NCBI RefSeq assembly: GCF_041886205.1
Contig: NZ_CP169029.1
Reading direction: 5' to 3' (one strand)
DNA from: Escherichia coli
GTDB lineage: Bacteria > Pseudomonadota > Gammaproteobacteria > Enterobacterales > Enterobacteriaceae
DNA: 64,000 bases
Shown piece after piece: positions 6,106 to 55,657 of the stretch (position 1 is its first letter; each line of letters begins with the position of its first letter). The notes below the pieces were generated by a model, which saw only the letters and a program-made list of their open reading frames with translations, did no database searches and was not told the DNA's origin. The translations under genes were made by a program, and so were the position numbers.

Positions 6106-6107
6106 GT

Positions 6108-6564: not shown

Positions 6565-6635
6565 TTCTATTGCCTTGATTTTTAATGTTTATGTTCTAGT
6601 CTGAATGTAACTTTGACACAGCAAGGAGTGAAAAA

Positions 6636-6914
6636 ATGTCTGATAATATGAAACGTTTCGAAGTTAAACGAGAAGGCATAGTTTACGGATATGTAGAAGA
6701 GGGTACATTTGAAACCCGGCGTTGGAATTTCGTCTACCCAATCGTAGATGGAAAGATATCTATGGACATTACGACCGTTAATATCCAAAAACAAGACGGA
6801 AAGACCCTTTTGGAATCACAAATCAAAAATATTGGTTTTGATGTCGATTTTGAAAAAAGAACCCTTACAAGAAATGATGGTACAGTTTTTGATTTAGTTG
6901 AAATCGATAGTTAA
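6636..6914 (+). CDS. hypothetical small protein (92 aa) bracketed by the two direct-repeat copies
   Basis: Strong RBS (aaggagtg) 7 bp upstream of ATG; hairpin downstream (ggcaggagt...actcctgcc at ~6940-6975); no recognisable domain. Confidence 0.5.
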   Translation: MSDNMKRFEVKREGIVYGYVEEGTFETRRWNFVYPIVDGKISMDITTVNIQKQDGKTLLESQIKNIGFDVDFEKRTLTRNDGTVFDLVEIDS

Positions 6915-7002
6915 TCATCACTAAAAGTCTTCACACTTGGGCAGGAGTACCCACCCCTTGGGAACTCCTGCCTGTATTCAAACCCGTTTCAAGTAGCTAC
7001 GT

Positions 7003-7112
7003 TCTCGCTCCTTCGGGTACATGATCATGATAAAATTCACTGTCTGACATAACCCTGATGCTGTCGCCTGACGACTCCGCGTGTTGTCTTACCACCAACG
7101 GGGCTATATGCG
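7003..7112. repeat. copy 2 of the ~110-bp imperfect direct repeat
   Basis: See 6453-6564. Confidence 0.5.
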
Positions 7113-7247
7113 CGCTTTGTTTAAATGGCCCCAATTTAAAGATTCACATGGGAAAGGCCTGCACTTCTGAAAACCCGCTTTCTCAAATTCAATTGAAAAC
7201 GGGTTAATATACTATTACTCAATTTTTTTTCTAAATAATAATCAGTC

Positions 7248-8387
7248 TTATTTGATTAAAGAGTAAATTCCATCTCTATCTAAAAAATCAATGACGTCGT
7301 AGTATGATATTGATAACTCCCACGATCCTAATGCATAGCATTGAATTTCGTACGGGCGGAAATGAAAAGTTAATCCTGAATCATGTATAGTAAAAATATC
7401 TAAACGGCTTTCTAAAATCCCCTTTACCATTTCAGCTAAAGTAGTGTCGTCCGGTTTTTGACCAGTCCTCTCCCAAAATACACGTGGAGCATCTGACATG
7501 AGTTTTTCTTTAATTTTTTTAATAGCATCTAAGTGGGTGCCTCGAATGAAAAGCTCAGATAGAGAAAATTTATATGCGTAGTCATTATCTGTAACCACAA
7601 AATTACTCACAGCAAAGTGGCTGTTTGGGTGTGCAGCGCCAGCGCCGTACCAGTCTACGTTATGTAAGATGCTTATAACATTTTTATTGCAATAAGCAAT
7701 ATAATACATTTCATTGTAATAGCTTGTGTACGTACTTTTATATTCTTCATGCCAGCCAAAATTGTGTGGCCAAGGCGACGTTCTGTTATCAAACACTAAG
7801 CTTGCTACACGGCCTGAAAAATAATTAGATATTATTTCTGCCGACTCTGGAAATAGTTGACTGCTTATTTTCGGGTAAGTTATTTCAAGCTCATGGCTAG
7901 GGATGGTGTTGTGATCTTCTTTATGTGTTAGGCTTATGAATGTAAAGCTGCCGTGTGTAACCCCGCTTGTTACTTCAAGGTTTTGTTGGGTTGCAGCCAG
8001 GTTTAATGATCTTTCTAAAATATCCCAGCCATCAGATCTTTTGTAGTCGATGTATTGGATTTTACTAGATATTAAGGATGGGACTTCGGCGTCGTCAATC
8101 AGCAGTGGGACTACGACGACATCATCTGGTTTATAATATTTTAACTTTTCAATGGCGTCATTTATTTCGCGCCTGATGTATCCATTTTTATTACAGCTAA
8201 CTTTGCTAAGTATTATTATGATAACATTTGCATTGTTAAAATTCTTTTGTATTTCATAATCCCAAATCACACCACCCGGAATATCTTTTATATCCATCCA
8301 CGGTTTATAGCCATTGTTTTTCAACTTTTCATAAATTGACTCGGTTATTTTTTCATCTTCTTTAGCGTGAGCCAAGAATATCTTCAT
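7248..8387 (-). CDS. TIR-domain protein with an unrecognised ~250-aa C-terminal domain (candidate antiphage effector or sensor)
   Basis: N-terminal MKIFLAHAKEDE...W...VIIIILSKVS...NGYIRREINDAIEK matches bacterial TIR motif spacing; AT-rich gene unlike neighbouring core. Confidence 0.7.
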   Translation of the reverse strand: MKIFLAHAKEDEKITESIYEKLKNNGYKPWMDIKDIPGGVIWDYEIQKNFNNANVIIIILSKVSCNKNGYIRREINDAIEKLKYYKPDDVVVVPLLIDDAEVPSLISSKIQYIDYKRSDGWDILERSLNLAATQQNLEVTSGVTHGSFTFISLTHKEDHNTIPSHELEITYPKISSQLFPESAEIISNYFSGRVASLVFDNRTSPWPHNFGWHEEYKSTYTSYYNEMYYIAYCNKNVISILHNVDWYGAGAAHPNSHFAVSNFVVTDNDYAYKFSLSELFIRGTHLDAIKKIKEKLMSDAPRVFWERTGQKPDDTTLAEMVKGILESRLDIFTIHDSGLTFHFRPYEIQCYALGSWELSISYYDVIDFLDRDGIYSLIK

Positions 8388-9080
8388 GTTTAATCCTCTA
8401 TGTGAATCACTCTATAAGGTTGATACTTGTGACATATAAAATGCATTTATTATATTGCAATAAGTAAGGTATCGATAGTCTGTGTTTTCTAAAGCCCAAT
8501 GCGTTGAGAGCAAAAGTTAGTGCTAAGATGAGTTAACTTTTTGACTATCAAAAGCGGTCTTTGAGAAGCAGTGACCCATAAATGTGATATCCGTGCTAGA
8601 TGTCTGAAAATTTCCTGCTTCAGGCCACATTTTACTCTTGGCTGTTAAGCAAACTGGGGAGTTTTATCTCGACTTGAAAAATTGCACGCTTATGGTTGCC
8701 CCTCCCTCAACGATTAAGGCTTCAACTTCCCCCGTGCGCCTCTCCCAGCCGAAGGCTGGGCGGGCTGTATATCGATTTGCCTTTCTCTGTGGCGTTTATG
8801 ACCCTGTTTCGCGTTCTGATCATGAGGCTGTGGGTTAGGGTTAATCTTCTCTTTAAACGCTAAATCACTCTTGACTCTCCGCTGTTAAAGCACTTTGCGT
8901 TGATGCTTGGCGCTTCTCTTGGCTGTCGTTATTGTTTTGGCTTCGGTGTCATCAATCGTTCGATTCTTGCTACCTGTCTGAGTGATTACTATCTGGTATC
9001 ATCAATTTAGGGTTTGACTAAATGCTACCACCAATGCAATGATGCTACCGTTTTGTGATACCAGACGGGTGAGGTGAACC

Positions 9081-9656
9081 ATGAGGACTTTTATCTACTG
9101 CCGCGTTTCAACACGCGAGCAGGATACGCAGAATCAGGTGCTGGCTATTGAGCGTGCCGGGTATAAGGTGCCGGAGAGCAGGGTAATCAGCGAGGACATT
9201 TCCGGCAGCGTTCAGGCTATGCAGCGCCCTAAGTTCCGGGCGATGGTTGAGCACAAGCTGGAAGCGGGAGATCAGCTTGTCGTGCTGAAACTGGACAGGC
9301 TGGGGCGTGACAACATCGATGTGCAGCAGACCATCGACATGCTGTTAGAACGCGGCGTGAAGGTGGTGTCTCTTGACCTGCCAGCGCGTGATCTGACTTC
9401 ATCTGAGGGCAAGCTAATCCGCCAGATGTTTGGAGCCTTTGCTGAGTTCGAGCGAAACCGTATCCGTGAGAGGACGCTGGACGGGCTGGAGAAGGCGAAA
9501 GCCAATGGCGTTAAGCTGGGACGCAAGGAAGCCACCGACACCACTCAAAAGGTGCAGGAGTTGCGGAGTGAGGGACTGTCTCAATCGAAGGTAGCGAAGC
9601 GTCTCGGCGTTAGCGTGAGCACCGTTAAACGCCACTGGAACAAGGGCGAGGGGTGA
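9081..9656 (+). CDS. small serine recombinase (resolvase/invertase family)
   Basis: N-terminal catalytic motif YCRVSTREQ, 191 aa, C-terminal HTH (GLSQSKVAKRLGVSVSTVKRH). Confidence 0.8.
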   Translation: MRTFIYCRVSTREQDTQNQVLAIERAGYKVPESRVISEDISGSVQAMQRPKFRAMVEHKLEAGDQLVVLKLDRLGRDNIDVQQTIDMLLERGVKVVSLDLPARDLTSSEGKLIRQMFGAFAEFERNRIRERTLDGLEKAKANGVKLGRKEATDTTQKVQELRSEGLSQSKVAKRLGVSVSTVKRHWNKGEG

Positions 9657-10737
9657 TGACCTACAAGCGAACGAGGTGCTACGACTGGCCGTTACTGGGC
9701 TGTGGGTGATGGATGACCTACAGTTTTTATATGGATATCAGGGTGTCATGTTATGCGTAATATCGTAATGATATGATTTATAATGTATTTTCGTATTACT
9801 TGCGGCTCTCGATGTGAAGAGGTGGCGGGGCTTTAGCCGTGCCAGACGATGAACATCGAGATCAGATTGTGAATGTGATTCATCACTGAACAATTCGGGG
9901 GATGGGGAGGGAAGGGGAGCAAGAGGTAATTGGTTACGTTCGGCGGCTGGGCTGAATCCTCTCTGTTCCCTGATTAACTTATTTCAGCGTACATGTGTAC
10001 ACTTAACTAATTATCTAGCCTCCCCTACTTACTTATCCTCCCCTCGGGAGGTACGCGCTGCACCTCGTTTACACGTCCCGTCCGCCTGCCGGAGACAGGG
10101 CTTCGCCCCTTCTCCAGACCTCTTCCCCTGCTGCGCTTCTCGCTCGCTTTGCTCTCTGTGATGCTCGGTGCTCATCGCTGCCACGCTTGCCGCACTGGCT
10201 AGGTGGCGGGGGTATACAGTGACACGACATTAACCATAGTTATTTGCACTTTACTGGTAATGGCACTGTATTCTCCATGCCATCTTCACTGTCTGCCGCC
10301 TGCCATTCTTTAGGATTCCATCCCTTAACATTCCGCGCTCGCTCTGCATATCTGGCGACACATTATCAAAATGTATCTTTCATAATTTTATAATCAATAC
10401 AATGAATTACATCTTTAATATTTAAAGGCTACTAATAAGGAAAGCTGGAACATACCTTTCCTGCTTTTAAACCTACGTGAATTGTTTTGTTAACTCCTCT
10501 CGGCCTAGACGCAACAAGGCTTTACCGGGCGTTGCAATCAGTTAAACCGCTAGAAAGCGGCTACTGTGGCAAGACGAACACCACTCGCTTGTGCATCCGT
10601 AGTTACCTACATGAGAGTGACTGCTAAGGATAGGCGGAACATTGTCACCAACACCGACAACGAAACCTCCACTACGGGAATGCAACCAATTCCCTGCGGA
10701 GCCTTTCAAATCCAAACCATTTACTGGAGTCTGTACA

Positions 10738-12582
10738 ATGCCAACAATTTTAGAGCGGCTGCTGGCGCATGCCGACAGGGCTGATGTGCTCAATGTGGGG
10801 TGCGCGGATGCTCAACAATTAATTGCAGATAAGGTTGTTATTCCCCGTTCCAAGTTGTGTCCTGTCAGTGGTAAGCCCGTTAAAGCTGTGTTTAATACTG
10901 AGCAGAACGTATTTTATTTTCACGCTGATGGTTCGGTTATGACTTTCCGCGAATGGAAAATCATAAACGGGATTGGCCGCAAGATACACGCCCGACGCGC
11001 TGATGCTGGGCTTCGTCAGGTTATTCAGCCCGGTGATGCAACTCACTGCCGACGCGCTGAGATTGAGCAGTGGCTGGACAAGAAGCCTGCTCGTTATGTT
11101 GACCCGCTGCCGCCAGACTTCCCCGGCGTTCGTGTCGATGACGCTGCACTTAAACCGCGTGAACACTCCATTCCAGAATCGACAACCGGGCAGAATGCTT
11201 TTCTCAAAGCCTGCCGCGAGTTCCTGATTTGTGATGAGAAGACCATGCACCGTATCAACAGGGGCATGAATAAACTGGAAGCGATGCGCAATACAGATTT
11301 CAAACGCTACGGGGACTCAGCGGAGTTTCGTCAATTGTGGTGTGGAGAGTCGAAACCTGCCGAGGATAAATTTAACAGTACAAATCATCATTGTGACCCG
11401 AACGGCTTGGCTGCATTGCCGTCTGTGCCGTCACTGAATACTGCGCCGTATGAGTTCCGCCCGCTGGCTCGCTGTGACCGAAACGCACGCGTTAGCCTGC
11501 TGCCACCTGATGGGCTGGAGTGGAGGCCGGGGCAGTTGTCTGTTGCTGATGTGATCTTTTCCCGTGGTGGTGATGTGCTGGCCGTTCTTCCCACGGGTTA
11601 TGGCAAAAGTGCTGCCTTCACTTACCCATTGATTTATGAGTCCCGTGCTGGCGTTGGTCTGTCTGTAATCGTTGTTCCTACTAATACCCTTAAACGCCAG
11701 ATTCTCCGACAGTTGCGGGAAGCGGGCGTTCACGCAGTGGCCTTTGGCGATAAGCTACCGAAGCACCGCAACGCGCAACAACTGGCGGGGCTGGCTGCCG
11801 GGGCGTTCCGTGTTGCTGTTGTTTCGCCTGAACATCTGGTTCCGTCGAATCAGGTTTTCGCGGCGCTGATGGCTTACGGTGTTGATCGTTTTATCATCGA
11901 CGAAGCGCACACGGTTAAAGACTGGGATTTTCGGCCTGCTTACGAGGCAATGCAGCACTCGCTACAACATGCCTTTCCTTCGGCTCAGCGCTGCGTGTTT
12001 ACGGCTACGCTACTACGTGAAAATGAGCGCGGTTTAATGGAGTCGCTGGGATGCCGTGGCGATTACGTCACATTCCGTGCTGATGTTGCTCGCGAGAATA
12101 TCCAGTTGATTCCGGTCAGGCAGTGCCGCCAGCGATACCGCGCGGCTGTTGGTCTGGTCGAGGCTCTGCCGAAGGAAGAGAAGACCCTCATTCTCGTCAA
12201 TGACCTTAAGACCTTGCGGGCGTACCTGAAACTCTTAGGCGACCGGGCGCGGCCATATCACTCGAAGACGATGCACCTGAGTAACGAAGAACGCCACGCA
12301 AACGCTGAGTGGTTTGCCACTACGCCGGGCGCAATTCTGGTTGCGACTAAAGCTTTCGGACTGGGGGCTGATGTTCCCGATATCCGTAACGTTATCGTGA
12401 CTTACATTCCTGATGACCTGCCTGATCTCGTTCAGATGATTGGACGAGCCGGGCGCGATGGTCAACCTGCCCGCGCGTTTCTGCTGTGGTCATCTCTGGC
12501 GCTGGATGCTGCGCCTGATGAGCTTGCTTACTTCTACCGCGCTGAAAACTGCAACTGGGATTACATCTCCCGCTTCCTCTGA
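10738..12582 (+). CDS. RecQ-family SF2 DNA helicase fused to a novel ~270-aa N-terminal domain
   Basis: LPTGYGKS (motif I), FIIDEAHTVKDWDFRPAY (DEAH, RecQ-like), IGRAGRDGQPA (motif VI); start chosen at MPTILER with RBS; the ORF-track start at 10642 is less likely. Confidence 0.75.
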   Translation: MPTILERLLAHADRADVLNVGCADAQQLIADKVVIPRSKLCPVSGKPVKAVFNTEQNVFYFHADGSVMTFREWKIINGIGRKIHARRADAGLRQVIQPGDATHCRRAEIEQWLDKKPARYVDPLPPDFPGVRVDDAALKPREHSIPESTTGQNAFLKACREFLICDEKTMHRINRGMNKLEAMRNTDFKRYGDSAEFRQLWCGESKPAEDKFNSTNHHCDPNGLAALPSVPSLNTAPYEFRPLARCDRNARVSLLPPDGLEWRPGQLSVADVIFSRGGDVLAVLPTGYGKSAAFTYPLIYESRAGVGLSVIVVPTNTLKRQILRQLREAGVHAVAFGDKLPKHRNAQQLAGLAAGAFRVAVVSPEHLVPSNQVFAALMAYGVDRFIIDEAHTVKDWDFRPAYEAMQHSLQHAFPSAQRCVFTATLLRENERGLMESLGCRGDYVTFRADVARENIQLIPVRQCRQRYRAAVGLVEALPKEEKTLILVNDLKTLRAYLKLLGDRARPYHSKTMHLSNEERHANAEWFATTPGAILVATKAFGLGADVPDIRNVIVTYIPDDLPDLVQMIGRAGRDGQPARAFLLWSSLALDAAPDELAYFYRAENCNWDYISRFL

Positions 12583-12627
12583 GTTAACTGGCTCGCCTGT
12601 TTAAATTCTTTTCTGGAGAAAATTTGT

Positions 12628-13062
12628 ATGCCTGATGAAACCGCGCTGCATCGCGCGGGGCGTTCTGACGCCCTGATTAATGCACAACTCGCCTTTGCCC
12701 TGAACGGGTATTCATTTGACGGACTGGCGTCACGCCATGTTCACGCTCTTAATCGTGAGGCCATATTGCGCCGGGTAAGCTCGCCACTACAGCGGTATTG
12801 CCTGCTGAATGATTGCGAGCCGTGGGAATGCATCGCGGCGGTGTTGAACAGATTCCGACGCCGGGAGGATGGCTCTCGCGTTTGGCCGACCTACCGCATG
12901 GCTCGCGAGATATTTAACGGAACTGTTCACCCGGATATTAAGACGCGCGATGAGATATTCCAGTCTGTACAACGCCGCCTCTTTTTACCAAAACCAGTAC
13001 ACGCCGAAGTAATTCAGTATCTGCGCGTAATGGGGCTGATAGGAGTTAATCCGCATGACTAA
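12628..13062 (+). CDS. hypothetical protein (144 aa), first of a run of overlapping small ORFs
   Basis: ORF with RBS; stop overlaps next start. Confidence 0.45.
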   Translation: MPDETALHRAGRSDALINAQLAFALNGYSFDGLASRHVHALNREAILRRVSSPLQRYCLLNDCEPWECIAAVLNRFRRREDGSRVWPTYRMAREIFNGTVHPDIKTRDEIFQSVQRRLFLPKPVHAEVIQYLRVMGLIGVNPHD

Positions 13063-13261
13063 AACCGAGTTTGAAAATGAAACGTGGCGGATGAAAGGCT
13101 TGCTCCTTGGAGCGCTAATTCGCCGCCTTGAGGAAGACAAGGTTGGTGAGTCGCGCATGGCCGCAGCGGAGTTATCCAGTGCGGTCAACTTCCTTAAGGC
13201 CAATGCCGTAGAAGCGCCGGACACGTCATTTAACCGTGTATTTGAGGATGACGAGCAATGA
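13055..13261 (+). CDS. hypothetical protein (68 aa)
   Basis: Overlapping start/stop with neighbours. Confidence 0.4.
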   Translation: MTKTEFENETWRMKGLLLGALIRRLEEDKVGESRMAAAELSSAVNFLKANAVEAPDTSFNRVFEDDEQ

Positions 13262-13434
13262 CACCCGCAGAGTTTAGAGCTTGGTTTGCAACCCTGCCGC
13301 CGAACTATCAGAGCGCAGCACGAGCCATGTATGAAAGCGCCCGCAAGACGGGAACACATACCGCTTCCAGCCTGTTACTCATTCGCTCGCTGATTGAAGA
13401 TCAAATCAATTTCGATGGAGATTTTACTCTATGA
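13258..13434 (+). CDS. hypothetical protein (58 aa; below the ORF-track size cut-off)
   Basis: ATG overlaps upstream stop (caATGAcac); translates to MTPAEFRAWFATLPPNYQ...; stop overlaps the next ATG (ctATGAgag). Confidence 0.35.
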   Translation: MTPAEFRAWFATLPPNYQSAARAMYESARKTGTHTASSLLLIRSLIEDQINFDGDFTL

Positions 13435-13994
13435 GAGTTTTAAACCTGACCGATATTCAGCGCATTAATACCCTTGTGAAGCGCGACCTTCTCAATGTGG
13501 AGGAGGTTGTCGCTGCAACCGGATTCGACCCGGTAGATGTGGACGCGGTGCTGAGAGGCGTCTATGTCGCCGATCTTGCCAGCCAGTGGAAGGACGACGC
13601 CGCTATCTCACTGGAGGAATACAACGCTATCCGTAAGCGCTGGAAACCGGGGCGCGGTCACTGGGACACTGCACACGCCATTGCACGCGATTTTCTAATC
13701 CGGCCTGAAACGGTATTAGCTATCGCCCATTCCCGCTTTAGCAATGCCCAAACGCACCCGATGCCGAAAGCTGTTAAAGCGAAGCCTGAGAAGCCGCAGA
13801 CGATGCGCCGCCTGTCTGGCGCTGATCTTGACGAGGCGCACAAGCTGGAGCGCTTTGGCTGGCCTGTTGCTGAGATTGCCGGAAAGCTTGAAATTCCAGT
13901 CGAAGCGGCTGCTCAAGCGCTGCGCCTGATGCGTAATCGCTGGAGCTATCCCGATATTTTAGAAGACGTTAACGCGCGATACGGGGCTAAGTGA
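13431..13994 (+). CDS. hypothetical protein (187 aa)
   Basis: ORF in coupled operon. Confidence 0.45.
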   Translation: MRVLNLTDIQRINTLVKRDLLNVEEVVAATGFDPVDVDAVLRGVYVADLASQWKDDAAISLEEYNAIRKRWKPGRGHWDTAHAIARDFLIRPETVLAIAHSRFSNAQTHPMPKAVKAKPEKPQTMRRLSGADLDEAHKLERFGWPVAEIAGKLEIPVEAAAQALRLMRNRWSYPDILEDVNARYGAK

Positions 13995-14230
13995 TGGCAG
14001 AGCATAACGAACCACTGCATCCCGCAGTTAACCCTGATCTCTATGTGAATCTTGATGAACAACGCGAGGGATACGCGCCGATTGAATCACGGGGCTGGGG
14101 TGTGTTGACGCAGAACCTGACCGGGGAAGGGCGAACCGACTCCAGCCAAACGCTTAACCAGAATCGAAGACAACGCCCGCGCGGCTCTGTTGGTGAACGC
14201 CGTTGGCTTCGCAGGCATGGGTTACTTTAA
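13991..14230 (+). CDS. hypothetical protein (79 aa)
   Basis: ATGA overlap with upstream gene. Confidence 0.35.
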   Translation: MMAEHNEPLHPAVNPDLYVNLDEQREGYAPIESRGWGVLTQNLTGEGRTDSSQTLNQNRRQRPRGSVGERRWLRRHGLL

Positions 14231-14242
14231 CGAGGAATTACC

Positions 14243-14482
14243 ATGAGCAAAACCATTGTACTGTTGCCGCCCCGAAAGAATACCGACTGGGCTGCACAAT
14301 TAAAGCTGATTTCTGAATCGCTTGAGGTGAGTCAGGCAGACCTTGCCCGCGCCTATCAGGTTGACCGTCAGGATATGGGGAAAGCGTATCACGGTGTACG
14401 CAAACTGCCGGAGCGATGTGTGCCTGTTCATATGCTGTTGTTAGCGCAGGTTCACGACTTTAGAGCATTATCAGGAGAATAA
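14243..14482 (+). CDS. hypothetical protein (79 aa), possible helix-turn-helix
   Basis: GAGGAA RBS; segment SQADLARAYQVDRQDMGKAYHG resembles an HTH. Confidence 0.4.
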   Translation: MSKTIVLLPPRKNTDWAAQLKLISESLEVSQADLARAYQVDRQDMGKAYHGVRKLPERCVPVHMLLLAQVHDFRALSGE

Positions 14483-14485
14483 TTT

Positions 14486-15166
14486 ATGTCTGATCAGAAT
14501 GTTAATCCGTACCTTTCCGGTGGTGATGCTGCACCGCAGCAATCGCCATACATGGCCGCACCAGTGGGCGCTGACAATGGCGCATCTCGCTTTAGCGCTG
14601 AGCCTGCTGATGCTGATTTCCTCCGTACCCAGCCCGTTAACGGCAATGATGGCGGCCAATGGAATAATAGCAATATTGCTAATCAGCAAGACCGGAACAC
14701 TGACAGCGCCGAGGCGCAGGTGGGCGATACTATCCCCCTGATGGATGGAACAGCTATTGAGTACACCGCCGAGCTACAAGGTTTAATGGGGCAGTTTCAC
14801 CAGTCCATAGAAAGCCAGCTAGGGCAGGGTACAGTTGACGCTATGTTGCAGTACGCTGGCACGCTCGATGCCGGGACTCAATCAACCCTTGAACGGATGG
14901 TTATGTCTGGCGACCCTGCACAGATGCAGCGGGCGGTTCAGTATCTGCAAGAGCGTATGGCTGGCGGTTCCATTACCGGTTACGTCCCGAACGGCCAGAC
15001 CGCCGCGCAACCTGTCGGAATGTCTCATGCTGAGTTTATTGCAGCGTATGACCAGCTTTCGCAGTGGGCACAGCAATCAGGGTATGGCCCCGGCCATCGT
15101 CAGTACGACGAGCAATACCGCGCTCTGGTTGCGCAGCGCTCCGCTGGCAAACGTGCTGGCCGCTAA
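14486..15166 (+). CDS. hypothetical protein (226 aa) with low-complexity N-terminus
   Basis: AGGAGA RBS; ORF. Confidence 0.45.
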   Translation: MSDQNVNPYLSGGDAAPQQSPYMAAPVGADNGASRFSAEPADADFLRTQPVNGNDGGQWNNSNIANQQDRNTDSAEAQVGDTIPLMDGTAIEYTAELQGLMGQFHQSIESQLGQGTVDAMLQYAGTLDAGTQSTLERMVMSGDPAQMQRAVQYLQERMAGGSITGYVPNGQTAAQPVGMSHAEFIAAYDQLSQWAQQSGYGPGHRQYDEQYRALVAQRSAGKRAGR

Positions 15167-15325
15167 GCAATCGCCCGTCCTGTCTTCTCCGCGTCTTAAC
15201 CTTACGTTTTAGAGCCTGAATCGCGTTGTACATCGCCAGATGTGTATTCGTACACCTGCGCCTGTAAAACGCGAAATTACCTCTCAAACACCACACATAA
15301 ACCCACTTTGCATTGAGATCTGACA

Positions 15326-15673
15326 ATGACCTTACTGACACCTGAAAACGTGGCAGCGGCTAGGGCTGCCCGTAGTGCGAGGATTGAACACTGGAAAGCC
15401 AACGCCAGCCAGCTTAAACAGGACTTTGCTGACGAAGCGCACTGGCGGCGGCTCGCCTCACTCTACGGCGTGCGTATGCCCTCGGCGTATGTTCCCGGCT
15501 CTGAGCTGCGATTGTTGCGCAGGGCGGCCAAACGCGCGGGCATCTCTGGTGCTGACATGCGCGATGCTTTCGGTGGAGGCGTTGCGCACCTGCACGAGCT
15601 TAATCCCCACTGGCCTGCTTTCGCGCTTATCGGCCTGATTCTTGAGATCGCGGCTGAAAAAGCTGCTGCCTGA
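15326..15673 (+). CDS. hypothetical protein (115 aa)
   Basis: ORF. Confidence 0.4.
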   Translation: MTLLTPENVAAARAARSARIEHWKANASQLKQDFADEAHWRRLASLYGVRMPSAYVPGSELRLLRRAAKRAGISGADMRDAFGGGVAHLHELNPHWPAFALIGLILEIAAEKAAA

Positions 15674-15740
15674 CCCGTCACATTCTCTTTTCCCATTTCT
15701 ATAAATCGCGCTGGCTATAGCTGGCGCGGGAGCTATTCCT

Positions 15741-16553
15741 ATGACTGACAATGTTTATACCCCTGATCAATTCCGCCCGCACTGGGGCGGTGTAGGTGCT
15801 GACAACGACATTCACATTGAAGCGTATGACCGGGACGTTCAGACCCGTCTTGAGGCAAAGAGCGTCTTTCTGGCCGAGGGGCTGAGCACATACAAGCCGC
15901 TGAAAGCCAGCAACCATTACCGCATTGATCGCCTGAGTGGTGATCTTGAGGTGAAGGGCAGAACCTCAGGGCAATCGCTGGAGCCTACCGCTGTTAAGTC
16001 GGACAAGCTGATTATCTCTGTGGATACGCTGAGTTATATCCGCATCCCGATTGATTATCAGGATGACTGGACTGCACCCACCTTTCGCGCAGAGCTGAGC
16101 CGCAATATCGGCACTGCGCACGCTAAGTTCTACGACGAAGCGCACACCATCCAGTTAATCAAAGCGACTGACTTTGTACCGCCGCCGACACTGCAACCAA
16201 CGTTTAACCCGCTTACCGGGCAATGCACCCAGCTTACAGAGAGGATAAATAAGATGATAACCACGATTAAGCTGAGGTGGCGGTACATCGAGCCGCCGCC
16301 AATGACTGGCGCACTTGCTGACCTGAAACAATGGGTAATTGATGCCGGAGAGCCTGAGCTTGAAGATGAATTTCGTAAGCTGCTGGGGCTGATGCGTCGC
16401 AATGGTATCAGTGATGAACGTGTTAAGGCGATTGCTGATGAGCTTTATGCTCTGGTATGCCAACGCCAGCGCGAAGAATACGAAGCCTGCAAGCGGGCTG
16501 CCTCTGACAATGGAGACTTTGAATCATGGTTACACGGACAGACCAACTACTAA
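15741..16553 (+). CDS. hypothetical protein (270 aa)
   Basis: ORF; no recognisable domain. Confidence 0.5.
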   Translation: MTDNVYTPDQFRPHWGGVGADNDIHIEAYDRDVQTRLEAKSVFLAEGLSTYKPLKASNHYRIDRLSGDLEVKGRTSGQSLEPTAVKSDKLIISVDTLSYIRIPIDYQDDWTAPTFRAELSRNIGTAHAKFYDEAHTIQLIKATDFVPPPTLQPTFNPLTGQCTQLTERINKMITTIKLRWRYIEPPPMTGALADLKQWVIDAGEPELEDEFRKLLGLMRRNGISDERVKAIADELYALVCQRQREEYEACKRAASDNGDFESWLHGQTNY

Positions 16554-16561
16554 GAAAAGTG

Positions 16562-16954
16562 ATGCGGGGCTATTTGGAACACCTCGGCAATATACCGCTG
16601 GCGGAACGGATTACAAACGCTGCTGCATTCGAAGATGTTTATCGCTTCCTGTTGAATGGTTCCGGGCGGCTGGAGCTGCGCCGTGCTGACGTGGCTGCTG
16701 TCCGTGTCTTCTTGTGGAATTATCAGTACCGTCGCTGTGCGGTGACAGGTAAGCCGCTGCGCCTTGCGTCTGCCGTGCTGGATCACTGCCACCGAACCGG
16801 GCGCGTGCGTGCTGTGGTGCATCGTTCTGCTAATGCTGCCGAGGGCGGCTATCACGTAGGGCGTTTGTGCGGTATGTCCCCAACCAGCATGGGGGCGATG
16901 CTGAGTTGCTATCGCCAGCAATATAAAGGACTCGGCATTATTTATCCGAAATGA
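16562..16954 (+). CDS. possible endonuclease VII / HNH-like protein
   Basis: C..TG...(x)LDHCHRTGRVR segment resembles the recombination endonuclease VII motif (CxxC...DHxHxTGxxRG); weak. Confidence 0.35.
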   Translation: MRGYLEHLGNIPLAERITNAAAFEDVYRFLLNGSGRLELRRADVAAVRVFLWNYQYRRCAVTGKPLRLASAVLDHCHRTGRVRAVVHRSANAAEGGYHVGRLCGMSPTSMGAMLSCYRQQYKGLGIIYPK

Positions 16955-16996
16955 CGGGGCTACTATGCCCCGTATTTTAACTGGCGGGAGGTGTTA

Positions 16997-17914
16997 TCAA
17001 ACAGGAATATTCAAGTAAGCGCAGATTGCATTAGTCAGCAGAGCCGGAGCTACCGCACCCGCAATTTTGAGGCTGCCAGAGTAAGCTTTGCCTATCATAG
17101 CTCCGACCCAGTTACCAATTTCCCCTCCAAGATTATTTGATGATGTGGGGGCTGGGGACTGCTCTATTGCTTGTTTCAACGTCTTAATGTCGCTGTCTTC
17201 AATGCCATATTCTTTTAGTTGACGCTCAAGAGTATTGAAGTCACCAGCTGTTATGGAATTTTGCTGATTAATATCCCCAGTGTTTCCAGCACCAATTGCA
17301 CCAGAGTTGTTAACATTTCCGTTGAAATTATTAATGTTATTTACTGTCATACCTGCCGCCTCTTTCTTTTCTTCGAGAGAAAATAACAACCCTTCACCGA
17401 GTATCCCTTTTCTTTCAAGTAATAAAGCCCAGTCGAGAATCCTTGAGCGAGTATTTGAAAGTATTTTGGTTATCTGTGTGGGGTTAATGCTATATGCCAT
17501 CCGAAAATCGCAGTCGCCCATTTCCTGCAAGAAGTCAGCCAGAAAAGATGGGAGGTCACTATATAGTGTGCTGTCCCGTTTCGCGTACTCAATCAACATT
17601 GATACAGGATTGTTTATGTGAACAGTTGTTAAGGTATCGTAGATATCTTGATGCTTTTCCTGTGTATTACTTAGTTGATATGGAATCCAACCGACATATG
17701 GATTGAACGCTCGAATCGGAACATTTCTGAGAACTCTGTAGTCGGGAAGTAGATCATGTGATGGATAGCCGTTTAATTCATGCTCAAGCCACTCAGATAT
17801 ATCCTTTAGGTCTAGTTTGACTGAGATCATTTTTGCTCGTGCCAATAGCTCCTCAATATCGGTTGAGCTTGAGCTAGCCATTTCTTGTAACTTAAGGACG
17901 GGAGAATTGTTCAT
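16997..17914 (-). CDS. AbiTii-like abortive-infection protein candidate with Gly/Asn-rich linker and hydrophobic C-terminus
   Basis: N-terminal ELLARAKMISVKLDLKDISEWLEHELNGYP resembles the AbiTii N-terminal region; AT-rich; directly downstream of the integrase. Confidence 0.45.
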   Translation of the reverse strand: MNNSPVLKLQEMASSSSTDIEELLARAKMISVKLDLKDISEWLEHELNGYPSHDLLPDYRVLRNVPIRAFNPYVGWIPYQLSNTQEKHQDIYDTLTTVHINNPVSMLIEYAKRDSTLYSDLPSFLADFLQEMGDCDFRMAYSINPTQITKILSNTRSRILDWALLLERKGILGEGLLFSLEEKKEAAGMTVNNINNFNGNVNNSGAIGAGNTGDINQQNSITAGDFNTLERQLKEYGIEDSDIKTLKQAIEQSPAPTSSNNLGGEIGNWVGAMIGKAYSGSLKIAGAVAPALLTNAICAYLNIPV

Positions 17915-17934
17915 TGAAGCCCCTCAAAAGTTTT

Positions 17935-19152
17935 TCAGCATGTTATCGCATCATATTTGACTAACTCAACATGTCTCGATAACTCTTGCATCCCAGCTCC
18001 CTTGCTGTATGTCCTGAATGCTTCAGTTTTGGCCTTTTGTTCGGTGTGCCCTGTGATTGCACCTATCCGCTGTTCTGGTACGCCAGCCCTATCTAAGCAG
18101 GTGATGAAGTGACCGCGCAGTGAATGGAAGCATTGGCGATCTGTAGCCGCTGGCAGCACGCGACGGCGTAGCCGTGTGAATGCCTGAGAATACCACGGGC
18201 CGCGCTTACCATCGGCGCGTTTAATCTTGTTTGATTGGGGCAGTAGGTATTCCCCGTTGTTCTGCGAAAGGTATTTATCAACGATGCTAATTAATAGCGA
18301 GTGTATGGGGACGTGCCTTACGCCCGCTTTAGTTTTAGATTTGCTGACGTAGAAGCACCGTATCCCTTCAACTGTGACGATCTCATCTCGTTTGATGCTG
18401 GCGATTTCGTCGAGACGCATACCGGAATACAAGCCGATTATGATTACGTCGCGCACCTCGCCACCTGCCTCTTTTATTAATGCCTGTAGTTGGTGAGGCT
18501 CAAACGGCTGGTAACTTTCAATGGTGCGGCGGGCTTCCAGATTGTGGCCGTGGAACGGGTTGCTGTCCGGTATCTGATCGTAACGTCTCTTGGCGAACTC
18601 ATAAAGACTGCCCAAGGAGGTTAACCAGTTTTGCACAGTCTGCGGAGCTGCATCACTTTGCTGCTGGGTATCAACGAACTCTGAAACGAGCCGCCGCCCA
18701 ACTTTATCTAAGGTGATATCTGTCTTCTTGATGCTTTGGAGAAATACCTCTACCGCTCTGGCCGACTTGCTCAATGTAGAGAATGTTCGGCGCTCGCTAT
18801 ACACCGCCATGTACTCATCACGGATAGCGGACAGCTTGGGAATCATTGTTGAAACATGTGTAGTTTCGGGTGATTTATTGCTGGCCTGTTTTAATAAAAT
18901 TTGCAGGGAGCTAAGCGTGTTCTGGATTCTAATATCTTCGCGCTCAGGATTTAGTAATGTCTTGATGTTATTGAACTCAATCAGCATGTGGTTGCGAAAA
19001 TGCCGAGCCTTTACGATGTCCCTAGTTCCCGTGGATTTGCGCCAAGCCCGTTTATTGCCAAACAGATGGCGCATGTATTTTGGGACAAAGATTTGAAATA
19101 TCCAGACGCCGTTATGGCTTTGAAAAAGATACTGATTGTGCTTGATAGGCAT
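17935..19152 (-). CDS. tyrosine-type site-specific integrase
   Basis: 405 aa; C-terminal catalytic residues (R...HSLRGHF...Y); adjacent to attR. Confidence 0.85.
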   Translation of the reverse strand: MPIKHNQYLFQSHNGVWIFQIFVPKYMRHLFGNKRAWRKSTGTRDIVKARHFRNHMLIEFNNIKTLLNPEREDIRIQNTLSSLQILLKQASNKSPETTHVSTMIPKLSAIRDEYMAVYSERRTFSTLSKSARAVEVFLQSIKKTDITLDKVGRRLVSEFVDTQQQSDAAPQTVQNWLTSLGSLYEFAKRRYDQIPDSNPFHGHNLEARRTIESYQPFEPHQLQALIKEAGGEVRDVIIIGLYSGMRLDEIASIKRDEIVTVEGIRCFYVSKSKTKAGVRHVPIHSLLISIVDKYLSQNNGEYLLPQSNKIKRADGKRGPWYSQAFTRLRRRVLPAATDRQCFHSLRGHFITCLDRAGVPEQRIGAITGHTEQKAKTEAFRTYSKGAGMQELSRHVELVKYDAITC

Positions 19153-19238
19153 AGCTTTTTGTCCTATAAAAGCACGCTATCAGGTACAGCCATTTGTACA
19201 ATGTTGGGATGGGTAAGCAAGTTTCCGACTTGTTTTAA

Positions 19239-49047: not shown

Positions 49048-49130
49048 CCCAGAGGTATTGATAGGTGAAGTCAACTTCGGGTTGAGCACATGAATTACAC
49101 CAGCCTGCGCAGATGCGCAGGTTTTTTTTT
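49048..49130 (+). ncRNA. omrB: OmrB small regulatory RNA
   Basis: cccagaggtattgataggtgaag...gcgcagatgcgcag hairpin plus T9; shares 5' and 3' ends with OmrA. Confidence 0.8.
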
Positions 49131-49243: not shown

Positions 49244-49331
49244 TCCCAGAGGTATTGATTGGTGAGATTATTCGGTACGCTCTTCGTACCCTGTCTCTTG
49301 CACCAACCTGCGCGGATGCGCAGGTTTTTTT
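49244..49331 (+). ncRNA. omrA: OmrA small regulatory RNA
   Basis: cccagaggtattgattggtgagattattcgg...gcgcggatgcgcag hairpin plus T-run. Confidence 0.8.
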
Positions 49332-49398
49332 TCGCACCTAATTTACTGTCGCTCGCGTTCTTTATCTCGTGTAATCTCCCTCCATTCGCTTTTACTGA

Positions 49399-52765
<3,367 letters not shown>

Positions 52766-52803
52766 GCTTTCACCAGATGGTATATTCCGCCATCTGGTGA
52801 AGG

Positions 52804-54474
52804 TCACATTCCCGAAGGGTGCATACCTTTCGGATACTTTACGCTGTATGAGAATGGCAGACTCACGTTCTCTTTGCCTGACAGTTTCAGCGTCCAGGAC
52901 AGTTCACCTGTTTTCGCATCAAACTGCGCCTGGTCATACTGCATTTTTTCCACCGTAATATCACTATTAGCACTGACAGGGATCTGGTCGAGCAGAGTGA
53001 TATCTACCGCTTCGCCGTAGCTGTTCTTTACATTGAGGGTGTAACTGAAGTTGCGTACCGCGCTGTCGTTAAAGATAGATAACGCATTCTCTTTTTTGAG
53101 TACGGCTTTACGCTGAATAATCAGCTTAGGATCGCGGTTAAGCTGAATATCAAGTGACTTACCATCTTCTGGCGGCTGCAAATAGCCCACACCGGTACGG
53201 TTGTTACCAAAGAAGATCTGACTTTCGCCGGGGATTAAATTTAACTGTTCCCACTCTTTAATTTGCACCTGAAGATATGCGTCATTACTGATCTTCGGAA
53301 TAGCAAAGAAGCGATATTTACCGCTGACCGACTCTTCCTTAATGACCACCGTGCGCGCGGTATTATCGCTGTCGATTTGCCATGGCAGCGAAAGCGCATA
53401 GCGAACATTTTGCGCCGTGAAACTTTCTGGTCGCGCCGAAGCTGGCACTGCCTGTGGGGCATACTTGCGCCCGGCATGTCGCTCCCTTGTTTTTTGCATG
53501 TCTGCCTCCAGGGTTTTCTGCAATTCTGAGGCATCCAGGTTAGACGAATATTCCAAACGCTGTTCCATCACGGGTGATGCTGAAAGCGAGCCGCTTACAC
53601 CACCATACTCCGGAACATCCACATACAGGGTTTCCAGGTGTGGCAACGTGAGATGAGTATCAGGTTCACTGGTCGAGAGCACGAGATTAACGCCTTTCCA
53701 GGGCAACCCCGTATACTGGCGAATATTAGCCTTATAAACCAGACGCAGCGGCTGGTTTATGGCCGTGGCGTGAATATCATAGATCGGCGTCCATGTAGCA
53801 TCTGGGGTCATATAACGCACCACCGCTTTCGCAGTGACGGTTTTTGGGGCATAGACCTTAGCGATAATAACCTGCGGATCATCGGCTGCCATTGAATCGC
53901 CGTTACTCATACTCTCGCGTTGCTCCAGCTTTTCAATTTCAAGCTGCTTATCAGCAAGTTTCTGCGTCAACTCATTGTCGACTTGTAATAACTCACCATT
54001 TTTCTCTTTCACCATTTGCAAATACTTGCCAACTTCGGCGGCACTTTTATTGGTTAATGTGCTATTTGCCTCTAATACCTTAATTTGAGCCGCGATATTG
54101 TTTTTCTCGGCGGTCAGTTTTGCCTGTTCCACTTTTGCTGCTTTTAACTGTTGCTGAATATCTGGCGGCAGCGCATTCGGCTGTGTTTCCATTAGCGCAA
54201 TACGTGAGGAAAGCACCGTCACTCCGTTATCGATAGAAATGGCGATGCTGTCGTCGGTTACCGAATTGGCGATATTTGTGAAAATAATTTCGCTTTCACC
54301 AGCCGGTAAGTTGAGTGTCTCTTCACCTTGCAGGCTGGCACCATGCAGATAAACAGTGACGTCTTTAAGTGTTAGCGGTTGAGTTAACTGCGCCCCCCAG
54401 GCGGAGGACAGACACCCGGTAAGCAACATGGCGAGGGGAAGAGGTTTGAAAATCAACATAGTTATCCTTAACAA
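52804..54474 (-). CDS. secreted coiled-coil protein of unknown function (possibly DUF4139-like); not expected between tas and lplT in K-12
   Basis: 556 aa, signal peptide, central coiled coil (QQQLKAAKVEQAKL...EIEKLEQRE); family assignment tentative. Confidence 0.6.
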   Translation of the reverse strand: MLRITMLIFKPLPLAMLLTGCLSSAWGAQLTQPLTLKDVTVYLHGASLQGEETLNLPAGESEIIFTNIANSVTDDSIAISIDNGVTVLSSRIALMETQPNALPPDIQQQLKAAKVEQAKLTAEKNNIAAQIKVLEANSTLTNKSAAEVGKYLQMVKEKNGELLQVDNELTQKLADKQLEIEKLEQRESMSNGDSMAADDPQVIIAKVYAPKTVTAKAVVRYMTPDATWTPIYDIHATAINQPLRLVYKANIRQYTGLPWKGVNLVLSTSEPDTHLTLPHLETLYVDVPEYGGVSGSLSASPVMEQRLEYSSNLDASELQKTLEADMQKTRERHAGRKYAPQAVPASARPESFTAQNVRYALSLPWQIDSDNTARTVVIKEESVSGKYRFFAIPKISNDAYLQVQIKEWEQLNLIPGESQIFFGNNRTGVGYLQPPEDGKSLDIQLNRDPKLIIQRKAVLKKENALSIFNDSAVRNFSYTLNVKNSYGEAVDITLLDQIPVSANSDITVEKMQYDQAQFDAKTGELSWTLKLSGKENVSLPFSYSVKYPKGMHPSGM

Positions 54475-54616
54475 TGGGCACAGACATTGAAACGCGCGCT
54501 GGCGTTGACCAAAAGAGTCTATTGCGCTTTGTCAGGAAAGATGCGGCGAAAAGTAGTGAATATATTCTGAAAAGTGGAGAAAAGAGACGCCTGGTGCAAA
54601 ACACCAGGCGAAAGGA

Positions 54617-55657
54617 TCACGGTGCCGGATAAGTATAAACCTGATGTACCGCTTCAATTTCAGCTAATACGTCTTCGCTTAACTCCAGATGCAAACTTTC
54701 GACGTTAGTTTTCAGCTGCTCCATCGTGGTTGCGCCCAGCAGAGTGCTGGCAACAAACGGTTGACGGCGTACAAAAGCGAGCGCCATCTGAGCAGGATCC
54801 AGCCCATGACGTCTGGCAATATCAACATACGCCGCGACGGCTTTTTGCGTTTGCTCACCGCTATAGCGGGTGAACCGACTAAAGAGCGTATTACGTGCGC
54901 CAGCGGGTTTTGCACCATTGAGATATTTCCCGGTCAGCGTACCGAAACCCAGGCACGAATAGGCCAGCAGTTCGACCCCTTCATACTGGCTGACTTCTGC
55001 CAGACCTACTTCAAAACTGCGGTTTAATAGACTGTAGGGGTTCTGAATGGTGACAATACGCGGCAGATCGTGTTTGTCCGCCAGATGCAGGTAGCGCATT
55101 ACGCCAAATGCAGTTTCGTTCGACACGCCGATATAACGAATTTTTCCCGCGCGTTGGTACTCTGCCAGTGCGTCCAGCGTATCCAGCAGCGAAACCGCAG
55201 GCGCAGAATCCGTCCAGCTATAACCGAGTTTGCCGAAGCAGTTGGTTGGGCGCTGCGGCCAGTGCACCTGATAAAGATCGAGGTAATCAGTCTGCAGACG
55301 CTTGAGGCTGTCATGCAGCGCTTCGCGGATATTCTTCCGATCCAGCGCCTGATCCGGGCGGATGCCCTTGTCATTATTGCGCGACGGTCCGCTCACTTTG
55401 GAGGCGATAATTAACTTTTCGCGGCTGCCATGTTTCGCCAGCCAGTTGCCGACGTAGGTTTCGGTTAACCCTTGCGTTTCGGGGCGCGGAGGTACTGGGT
55501 ACATTTCGGCAACGTCGATAAGGTTAATGCCCTGAGCGACGGCATAGTCGAGTTGTGCGTGGGCGTCGGCTTCGCTGTTCTGTTCACCAAACGTCATCGT
55601 GCCAAGCCCCAGCGTGCTGACTTCCAGCGAACTGTGGGGTATACGGTGATATTGCAT
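54617..55657 (-). CDS. tas: NADP(H)-dependent aldo-keto reductase
   Basis: 346 aa AKR fold. Confidence 0.85.
   Translation of the reverse strand: MQYHRIPHSSLEVSTLGLGTMTFGEQNSEADAHAQLDYAVAQGINLIDVAEMYPVPPRPETQGLTETYVGNWLAKHGSREKLIIASKVSGPSRNNDKGIRPDQALDRKNIREALHDSLKRLQTDYLDLYQVHWPQRPTNCFGKLGYSWTDSAPAVSLLDTLDALAEYQRAGKIRYIGVSNETAFGVMRYLHLADKHDLPRIVTIQNPYSLLNRSFEVGLAEVSQYEGVELLAYSCLGFGTLTGKYLNGAKPAGARNTLFSRFTRYSGEQTQKAVAAYVDIARRHGLDPAQMALAFVRRQPFVASTLLGATTMEQLKTNVESLHLELSEDVLAEIEAVHQVYTYPAP

What the first reader, a model, noticed from the sequence alone, without database searches (positions are those of the whole stretch)
52804..54474. Extra gene between tas and lplT: secreted coiled-coil protein
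tas and lplT are immediate neighbours in my recollection of the K-12 map. Here a 556-aa signal-peptide protein with a long central coiled coil and a beta-rich C-terminal half is interposed, convergent with lplT. This looks like a strain-variable insertion of unknown function.
Basis: partly seen in the sequence, partly recalled or inferred. Interest (0 to 1): 0.4.

Follow-up and report, generated by a model that had tools for sequence, protein, structure and literature searches.

The report
Rare ancestral MuiA-family envelope gene
The extra gene between tas and lplT is real and encodes an exported protein of the uncharacterised MuiA/DUF4139 family, but it is an old resident of this site that about 99% of E. 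coli have lost, not a new insertion, and RefSeq already annotates it.

Summary
The ORF exists as described. It runs 52804-54474 on the minus strand; the likely start is the ATG at 54459, giving 551 aa. It matches Pfam DUF4140 plus DUF4139 and NCBIfam TIGR02231 ("mucoidy inhibitor MuiA family", 207 bits against a cutoff of 112.6).

K-12 MG1655 has only 31 bp between tas and lplT. Just 51 of 5426 complete E. coli genomes carry the gene, always at this site.

It is not an insertion. E. fergusonii, an E. whittamii-like contig, other Escherichia lineages, Pseudocitrobacter and Superficieibacter all hold it between tas and lplT. There are no repeats, integrase or IS at its borders. It is under purifying selection (dN/dS about 0.14-0.19). 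Most E. coli share one identical empty allele, so loss is the best reading. Salmonella, Enterobacter, Trabulsiella and Cronobacter also have the empty arrangement.

The AlphaFold model (pLDDT 83) shows these parts:
- a signal peptide
- a beta domain
- an 85-residue helical hairpin
- a second beta domain
- a hypervariable disordered linker
- a roughly 200-residue beta-sandwich C-terminus

No solved structure matches beyond generic folds, and no catalytic motif is conserved.

My inference is a non-enzymatic periplasmic binding or scaffold protein tied to envelope stress, by analogy with P. aeruginosa MuiA. The mechanism is unproven. This is ordinary pan-genome variation of an already annotated family.

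The parts
52804..54459 (-). CDS of 551 aa plus stop (TGA at 52806-52804). MuiA-family / DUF4140+DUF4139 exported protein, 100% identical at the DNA level to the gene of RefSeq protein WP_000904522.1.
   Evidence: ORF. PGAP coordinates. Pfam. TIGR02231 at 207 bits. dN/dS 0.14-0.19.
54460..54474 (-). Probably not translated; it overlaps the ribosome-binding site.
   Evidence: PGAP start.
54465..54469 (-). Shine-Dalgarno AAGGA, 5 nt before the ATG.
   Evidence: Sequence. The block TTAAGGA is invariant in six taxa.
54394..54459 (-). Signal peptide (residues 1-22, MLIFKPLPLAMLLTGCLSSAWG|AQ). It also contains a possible lipobox LTG|C at residues 13-16.
   Evidence: The AW[GS]|AQ site is conserved beyond Escherichia; the Cys is found only in Escherichia.
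54166..54393 (-). N-terminal beta domain (residues 23-98, DUF4140).
   Evidence: pLDDT 89-98.
53905..54165 (-). Antiparallel helical hairpin (helices 99-131 and 140-185). Asn132 at the tip is kept in 88% of distant relatives.
53665..53904 (-). Middle beta domain (residues 186-265) carrying the family's invariant Y216, W223, Y227, D228, Q248 and W254.
53410..53664 (-). Hypervariable linker (residues 266-350) with low model confidence, probably disordered.
   Evidence: pLDDT 40-69. Identity to E. fergusonii is 33% here against 78-86% in the structured domains.
52807..53409 (-). C-terminal beta-sandwich region (residues 351-551), the most conserved part: K389, W403, D443, R450, N479, D491, Q492, P494, W522.
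52769..52801 (.). Perfect 12-bp inverted repeat between the two convergent stop codons. Likely a bidirectional terminator for lplT and this gene.
   Evidence: I6. Folding energy -19.2 and -23.7 kcal/mol, z = -5.6 and -7.2. Compensatory changes in E. fergusonii and Pseudocitrobacter.
54588..54610 (-). tas terminator hairpin followed by a T-run. It separates tas from this gene's upstream region.
   Evidence: Folding energy -18.2 kcal/mol, z = -6.3. Compensatory changes across genera.
54556..54573 (-). Conserved upstream block TTTTCAGAATATATTCAC containing the palindrome GAATATATTC (54567-54558). Candidate regulator-binding site.
   Evidence: TTTTCAGAAT is invariant from E. coli to Pseudocitrobacter. 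The functional reading is inference only.
54516..54523 (-). Conserved block AATAGACT. TAGACT is a possible -10 hexamer about 57 nt before the ATG.
   Evidence: AATAG is invariant and the remainder is near-invariant. The sigma-70 consensus scan found no promoter here. Inference only.

Best explanation
The gene is a monocistronic chromosomal gene for an exported envelope protein of the MuiA / TIGR02231 (DUF4140+DUF4139) family.

It is an old occupant of the tas-lplT intergenic site in Escherichia and some related genera. A minority of E. coli lineages (about 1% of complete genomes) keep it, and the rest lack it through what looks like one ancient deletion allele.

The product is most likely a non-enzymatic periplasmic binding or scaffold protein, and in Escherichia possibly one anchored by a lipid. 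Two beta domains flank a long helical hairpin, followed by a disordered spacer and a conserved beta-sandwich C-terminus studded with invariant Trp, Tyr, Asp, Gln, Asn and Arg.

By analogy with P. aeruginosa MuiA, I infer that it binds an envelope component (a glycan or a misplaced envelope protein) and so dampens envelope-stress signalling and exopolysaccharide output.

Shown here: gene reality, family membership, an N-terminal signal sequence, purifying selection, synteny and population frequency. Inferred: the direction of the event (loss), cellular location, binding rather than catalysis, and any link to envelope stress in E. coli.

Confidence is about 0.85 for identity and history and about 0.25 for the mechanism. 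The single number given is a blend.
For: Identity:
- Pfam DUF4139 E = 5e-43 and DUF4140 E = 4e-13.
- TIGR02231 at 207 bits against a cutoff of 112.6, over the full length.
- The family is large: 7903 cluster representatives at E <= 1e-3.

Export: the signal peptide and its AW[GS]|AQ site are conserved.

Real gene:
- The ORF is intact in six taxa with dN/dS about 0.11-0.19.
- The Shine-Dalgarno and both flanking hairpins are conserved, with compensatory changes.

History:
- 51 of 5426 genomes carry it, all at this site.
- MG1655 has a 31-bp spacer.
- The empty spacer is identical in K-12-like, UTI89 and O157 genomes.
- The same synteny holds in E. fergusonii, an E. whittamii-like contig, Pseudocitrobacter, Superficieibacter and other Escherichia.
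- There are no bordering repeats and no marked GC anomaly.

Architecture: AlphaFold models with pLDDT 82.9 and 85.0.

Standalone gene: the neighbours of distant homologues are unrelated to one another.

MuiA precedent: it depends on the ECF sigma factor SbrI, is induced by envelope stress and lowers PalgD activity (PMC10418997).
Against: - No experimental data exist for any enterobacterial member.
- E. coli has no alginate and no SbrI, so the MuiA phenotype cannot transfer directly. The review itself says MuiA's role needs re-evaluation.
- I could not obtain the PA1494 sequence, so closeness to MuiA rests only on the NCBIfam name.
- Salmonella, Enterobacter, Trabulsiella and Cronobacter have the empty arrangement. 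At family level, gain in some ancestor or exchange between genera is as possible as repeated loss.
- The gene tree is not cleanly vertical. dN between E. coli and E. fergusonii (0.162) is about equal to dN between E. coli and Pseudocitrobacter (0.178), although the flanking genes differ about threefold. dS to the E. whittamii-like allele (0.245) is lower than in the flanks (0.40-0.58, from lplT, tas and aas).
- The empty-site spacer shows no similarity above chance to either border of the occupied site, so the deletion junction cannot be reconstructed.
- No promoter was identified.
Confidence: 0.6

Rival explanations
1. Introgression. The E. coli ancestor had already lost the gene, and the three carrier lineages regained it by homologous recombination through the conserved tas and lplT flanks from other Escherichia species.
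For: dS between the window allele and the E. whittamii-like allele (0.245) is lower than in the flanking genes lplT, tas and aas (0.40-0.58). dN among E. coli, E. fergusonii and Pseudocitrobacter is star-like. The three E. coli alleles differ by 3-5% while the flanks differ by 1-3%. The empty allele is identical across strains I recall as phylogroups A, B2 and E.
Against: No sampled non-coli allele is more than 94% identical to any stretch of the window gene. The E. coli alleles are closer to each other (94.7-96.7%) than to any other Escherichia allele (about 92%). Within E. coli, the gene's dS (0.10-0.15) lies inside the range of the neighbouring genes (0.05-0.25). No non-carrier has flanks at least 99% identical to the window, so the carrier lineage is distinct as a whole.
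Confidence: 0.25
2. Recent insertion of a strain-specific gene cassette or islet.
For: The gene is absent from K-12 and from about 99% of E. coli. Its GC content (46-51%) is slightly below that of the flanks (52-58%).
Against: The site is identical in four genera. There is no integrase, IS, tRNA or flanking direct or inverted repeat. Divergence to other taxa broadly increases with that of the flanks, with exceptions (E. fergusonii versus Pseudocitrobacter, and the E. whittamii-like allele). The gene is not on plasmids and has no hit to defence-system models.
Confidence: 0.05
3. In Escherichia the protein is an outer-membrane lipoprotein, processed at LTG|C16 by signal peptidase II, rather than a soluble periplasmic protein.
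For: A lipobox L/F-[TVA]-G-C lies at residues 13-16 in every Escherichia sequence examined, with a non-Asp residue at +2.
Against: The Cys is absent in Pseudocitrobacter, Superficieibacter and almost all distant relatives, which have ordinary signal peptidase I sites. The AWG|AQ site 6 residues downstream is conserved. The hydrophobic core before the Cys is only about 8-10 residues long.
Confidence: 0.35
4. The gene is a decaying relic with no current function in E. coli.
For: It is lost in about 99% of genomes. Three of the 14 genomes of the window's lineage have it split by IS elements. dN is 5-10 times that of the neighbouring genes. Truncated 305-413-aa versions exist in public data.
Against: 48 of 51 carriers keep an intact 551-aa frame. 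dN/dS is 0.14-0.19, well below 1. All family-invariant residues are present. The ribosome-binding site, terminators and upstream blocks are conserved.
Confidence: 0.15
5. The hairpin makes it a periplasmic adaptor-like or Skp/prefoldin-like protein. It would dock tip-to-tip on an outer-membrane channel, or hold unfolded envelope proteins between coiled-coil arms.
Against: These matches cover only the helical hairpin, a very common motif. There are no Pfam hits to HlyD, Biotin_lipoyl or Skp. No transporter or channel genes are adjacent in any genome examined.
Confidence: 0.1

Closest known systems
MuiA (PA1494) of Pseudomonas aeruginosa, the namesake of NCBIfam TIGR02231
   Same: The window protein scores 207 bits over the full length of the family model. 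It is an exported protein. By the literature, MuiA is an envelope-stress-induced factor that lowers alginate promoter activity.
   Different: Orthology was not shown, because I had no PA1494 sequence to compare. E. coli has neither alginate genes nor the SbrI/SbrR ECF pair that drives muiA. The nearest non-enterobacterial relatives are only about 30-36% identical.
Pfam DUF4140 / DUF4139 proteins of Bacteroidota and other phyla
   Same: They share the two-domain core, length and signal peptide.
   Different: Many Bacteroidota members add an N-terminal CarboxypepD_reg or Plug-like domain, which is absent here. The enterobacterial subgroup replaces the family's near-invariant Gly at position 441 with Asn.
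Periplasmic membrane-fusion (adaptor) proteins such as HlyD, LipC and AcrA
   Different: The similarity is limited to the hairpin. There is no lipoyl, beta-barrel or MP domain signature, no HMM hit and no partner pump genes.
Prefoldin / Skp-type holdases
   Different: Those proteins are far smaller. Nothing corresponds to the 350-residue beta-rich remainder, and oligomerisation is untested.
Mu-homology domain of AP-2 mu2 and beta-sandwich accessory domains of glycoside hydrolases
   Different: The scores are typical of generic beta-sandwich resemblance, with 4-16% identity. There is no evidence of common descent or shared ligand.

Membership tests
NCBIfam TIGR02231 (mucoidy inhibitor MuiA family) | Whole-protein HMM score above the curated cutoff, with end-to-end coverage | tested here: met
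   207.3 bits against a cutoff of 112.6. Residues 37-551 align to model positions 3-521 of 524.
NCBIfam TIGR02231 (mucoidy inhibitor MuiA family) | Functional property of the namesake: suppresses alginate overproduction and PalgD activity and is ECF sigma (SbrI) dependent | not testable with these tools
   Known only from the P. aeruginosa literature. From my own knowledge, E. coli lacks both alginate genes and SbrI.
Pfam DUF4140 + DUF4139 architecture | N-terminal DUF4140 and C-terminal DUF4139, both above the gathering score | tested here: met
   DUF4140 scores 50 bits (cutoff 27) over residues 39-134. DUF4139 scores 147.5 bits (cutoff 31.8) over residues 219-549 of the 556-aa ORF, i.e. 5 less in 551-aa numbering.
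Pfam DUF4140 + DUF4139 architecture | Family-invariant residues present (W223, Y227, W254, N479, P494 and the near-invariant set) | tested here: met
   Alignment of 93 members. Conservation recount in 86 sequences (the query plus members at or below about 48% identity to it).
Sec-exported envelope protein | N-terminal signal peptide with a cleavage site | tested here: inconclusive
   A clear n-region, hydrophobic core and AWG|AQ site are seen by eye and are conserved. No signal-peptide predictor or experiment was available, and signal peptidase I versus II is unresolved.
Mobile element / genomic islet | Flanking repeats, an integrase, transposase or tRNA target, deviant composition, and variable location | tested here: not met
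   No bordering repeats. No mobility gene within the segment. GC is 46-51% against 52-58% in the flanks. The site is the same in all 51 carriers and in four genera.
Membrane-fusion protein (HlyD/AcrA) family | HlyD or Biotin_lipoyl-like HMM match and an adjacent transporter | tested here: not met
   No such Pfam hit at E <= 0.1. The neighbours are tas and lplT. Only the hairpin matches structurally.
Anti-phage defence systems (PADLOC) | Match to a defence-system protein model | tested here: not met
   0 families at E <= 0.01.

The most novel reading that the evidence does not exclude
The MuiA/DUF4139 family may be an unrecognised class of periplasmic envelope-homeostasis proteins with a fold not yet represented in the PDB. 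In this reading the hairpin is used for partner docking and the Trp/Tyr-rich beta domains bind an envelope glycan or unfolded outer-membrane protein. The E. coli presence/absence state would then be an ancient polymorphism, possibly kept alive by exchange between Escherichia species, that changes envelope-stress or capsule regulation in the carrier lineages.
Probability: 0.1. Interest if true: 0.5.

Novelty: already known. Interest (0 to 1): 0.2.

Why it matters
The practical value is modest. The result corrects the polarity of the event: this is loss in most E. coli, not gain in this strain. It also flags a natural knockout/knock-in pair, about 1% carriers against 99% non-carriers with otherwise near-identical flanks. 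That pair could be used to study a very large protein family (thousands of clusters) that has no solved structure and only one loosely characterised member. If the family does modulate envelope-stress signalling, E. coli carriers would give a tractable genetic system for it.

Tried and rejected
- Sequence search of the PDB returned only chance coiled-coil hits with E > 0.1.
- Foldseek of the whole model against the PDB gave nothing at E < 1e-3.
- A second profile search of the 5.8-billion-protein set, using the 93-sequence alignment to find P. aeruginosa MuiA, returned essentially the same candidates (only one new fragment) and no Pseudomonas entry. That search was wasted.
- The literature holds nothing on DUF4139, DUF4140 or TIGR02231 beyond incidental mentions and one review paragraph on MuiA. 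A PF13598 mention in an Aspergillus paper is irrelevant.
- I tested the idea that the 31-nt spacer of the empty allele is a remnant of the tas terminator or of the lplT-side hairpin. Similarity is not above shuffled controls, so I rejected it.
- I also asked whether the E. coli empty spacer is homologous to the Salmonella, Enterobacter, Trabulsiella or Cronobacter spacers. It is at best marginal against Salmonella (5 of 300 shuffles reach the score), which is not decisive.
- The sigma-70 consensus scan finds no promoter in the 157-bp upstream region. By eye I saw no convincing sigma-E or RcsB box.
- There is no Rfam family in or next to the gene.
- I first assumed the window was colinear with strain wlxctx60. 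That was wrong outside the locus.

Full report
**Observation.** The six-frame ORF list shows a 556-aa ORF at 52804..54474 on the minus strand. It lies between lplT (51572..52765, +) and tas (54617..55657, -). The listed start is a TTG. Five codons further in is an ATG (54459), preceded by AAGGA at a 5-nt spacing. PGAP uses this ATG in every annotated genome, giving 551 aa. The ribosome-binding block and ATGTT are invariant from E. coli to Pseudocitrobacter. The gene is convergent with lplT and lies in tandem behind tas.

**What the protein is.** Pfam gives DUF4139 (E = 5e-43) and DUF4140 (E = 4e-13). NCBIfam gives TIGR02231, "mucoidy inhibitor MuiA family protein", at 207 bits against a cutoff of 112.6 over the whole length. 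An exhaustive HMMER search of 1.84 billion cluster representatives finds 7903 relatives at E <= 1e-3 and 1688 at E <= 1e-30. The family is therefore very large.

Most of the 93 aligned members carry a hydrophobic N-terminal leader. In the window protein the site AWG|AQ follows residue 22, and Pseudocitrobacter keeps it as AWS|AQ. A Cys at position 16 forms a possible lipobox (LTG|C), but only in Escherichia. No defence-system model matches.

**Structure.** An AlphaFold2 model built from the 93-sequence alignment has a mean pLDDT of 82.9. It shows these parts:
- a beta domain (residues 23-89)
- an antiparallel helical hairpin (99-131 and 140-185)
- a second beta domain (196-262)
- a low-confidence segment (about 263-350)
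- a beta-rich C-terminus (353-543)

The low-confidence segment is also the hypervariable part of the sequence. It is 33% identical to E. fergusonii, against 78-86% in the structured domains.

Across distant relatives the invariant or near-invariant residues are Y216, W223, Y227, D228, Q248, W254, K389, W403, D443, R450, N479, D491, Q492, P494 and W522. Only N132, at the hairpin tip, is strongly conserved within the hairpin. No His/Cys/Ser catalytic set stands out. This pattern fits a binding or scaffolding protein better than an enzyme. That conclusion is an inference.

**Synteny and population frequency.** MG1655 has tas and lplT separated by 31 bp. A query spanning both flanks and the gene matches 5423 of 5426 complete E. 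coli genomes. Only 51 contain the gene, all on the chromosome and all with both flanks in one place.

The carriers fall into three allele classes:
- 14 genomes at 99% identity or more
- 7 genomes at 96.3-96.9%
- 30 genomes at 94.7% with near-identical scores, which look clonal

Three of the 14 genomes in the window's class have the gene split by an IS element. No non-carrier has flanks at least 99% identical to the window. The empty-site spacer is the same 31 nt in a K-12-like strain, UTI89 and O157:H7.

**Insertion or loss?** The gene lies at exactly the same place (tas, then the gene, then convergent lplT and aas) in the following:
- E. fergusonii (76% aa identity)
- an E. whittamii-like contig (92%)
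- Pseudocitrobacter (72%)
- the GTDB representatives of two further Escherichia lineages
- Superficieibacter electus (47%)

The segment has no bordering repeats, integrase, IS or tRNA, and its GC content is only slightly below that of its neighbours. Both flanking hairpins are conserved across genera with compensatory substitutions, and they fold far better than shuffled controls. Within Escherichia the parsimonious reading is that the gene is ancestral and the common E. coli state is a deletion.

**Caveats on the history.** Salmonella enterica, Enterobacter kobei, Trabulsiella and Cronobacter have tas and lplT adjacent, with spacers of 38-96 bp. At the level of the family the occupied state is therefore the minority, and its ultimate origin is open: an old gain with exchange between genera, or repeated loss. 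The spacers are unrelated hairpins or REP-like sequences and carry no usable homology.

Codon-level comparison gives dN/dS of about 0.14-0.19 within Escherichia and 0.11 to E. fergusonii. This is purifying selection, but dN is 5-10 times that of the neighbouring genes. Within E. coli the gene's dS (0.10-0.15) lies within the range of its neighbours (0.05-0.25).

Two things do not fit simple vertical descent:
- dS to the E. whittamii-like allele (0.245) is lower than in the flanking genes lplT, tas and aas (0.40-0.58).
- dN between E. coli and E. fergusonii (0.162) is about equal to dN between E. coli and Pseudocitrobacter (0.178), although the flanks differ threefold.

A sliding-window comparison shows no sampled allele from another species above 94% identity to the window gene, so a recent import from a sampled donor is excluded. 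Older recombination through the conserved flanks is not excluded. I rate it at 0.25.

**Expression signals.** The 157-bp upstream region begins with the tas terminator (54610-54588). It then contains two blocks conserved across genera. One is TTTTCAGAAT, part of the palindrome GAATATATTC at 54567-54558. The other is AATAGACT at 54523-54516. The sigma-70 consensus scan finds no promoter there. Whether these blocks are a regulator site and a weak -10 is speculation. No Rfam family lies in or beside the gene.

**Function.** The only studied relative is P. aeruginosa MuiA. According to a 2023 review, it is transcribed from an SbrI (ECF sigma) promoter, induced by osmotic shock, D-cycloserine and CtpA overproduction, and reduces PalgD activity. 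The authors note that its role should be re-evaluated (PMC10418997). I could not retrieve the PA1494 sequence, so orthology is untested.

Distant homologues sit next to unrelated genes: a eut operon, a SIS/dehydrogenase cluster, and a tandem paralogue. The gene therefore acts alone rather than in a conserved operon.

My best mechanistic guess has a confidence of about 0.25. I propose a non-enzymatic periplasmic protein, or in Escherichia possibly a lipid-anchored one. It would bind an envelope component through its conserved aromatic and polar beta-domain surfaces. It would use the hairpin for self-association or partner docking, and so buffer envelope-stress signalling.

**Novelty and verdict.** The exact protein is already in RefSeq (WP_000904522.1) and is annotated as a DUF4139 or MuiA-family protein in all carriers. 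However, it is ordinary accessory-genome variation of a known but uncharacterised family, and the polarity is loss, not gain. Interest is low (0.2). The residual value is that E. coli offers natural carrier and non-carrier backgrounds for studying a very large family with no solved structure.

Noticed in passing
window 6106-19238 (tRNA-Gly(CCC) at 6032-6105): A 13.1-kb island absent from the otherwise near-identical strain wlxctx60. It is inserted at the 3' end of tRNA-Gly(CCC), with about 30 bp of the tRNA end repeated at 19239. It encodes a tyrosine integrase (17935-19152, -), AbiTii (16997-17914, -), an endonuclease-VII-like protein, a DEAD/DEAH helicase (10642-12582, +), a resolvase (9081-9656, +) and a TIR_2+DUF3298 protein (7248-8387, -). 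It looks like an integrative anti-phage defence island.
   Followed up: partly
window 35670-36146: Here wlxctx60 carries a 768-bp IS1 copy between yqeI and yqeK, while the window has 477 bp of other sequence. The window therefore comes from a different strain of the same lineage.
   Followed up: partly
window about 20900-34650: A degenerate ETT2-type type III secretion cluster. Several genes are annotated as frameshifted or carrying internal stops in the near-identical wlxctx60 record. Coordinates come from mapping through.
   Followed up: no
window 49048-49129 and 49245-49332 (+): Two tandem OmrA/OmrB-family sRNA genes (Rfam RF00079, 86 and 97 bits) upstream of aas, matching omrB and omrA in K-12.
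   Followed up: yes
L020 2380-5686 (metagenome-derived contig): Two DUF4140+DUF4139 genes in tandem (519 and 561 aa), so the family can duplicate locally.
   Followed up: no
window 52804-54459 compared with L007, L008 and L010: Unexplained rate pattern. dN between E. coli and E. fergusonii is about equal to dN between E. coli and Pseudocitrobacter, although the flanking genes differ threefold. dS to the E. whittamii-like allele is about half that of the flanks.
   Followed up: partly
L022 5042-5134 and L023 5042-5137: The tas-lplT spacers of Salmonella and Enterobacter are about 95 bp, REP-like and similar to each other (0 of 300 shuffles reach the score). The E. coli, Trabulsiella and Cronobacter spacers are unrelated short hairpins, so this intergenic site turns over quickly.
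   Followed up: partly
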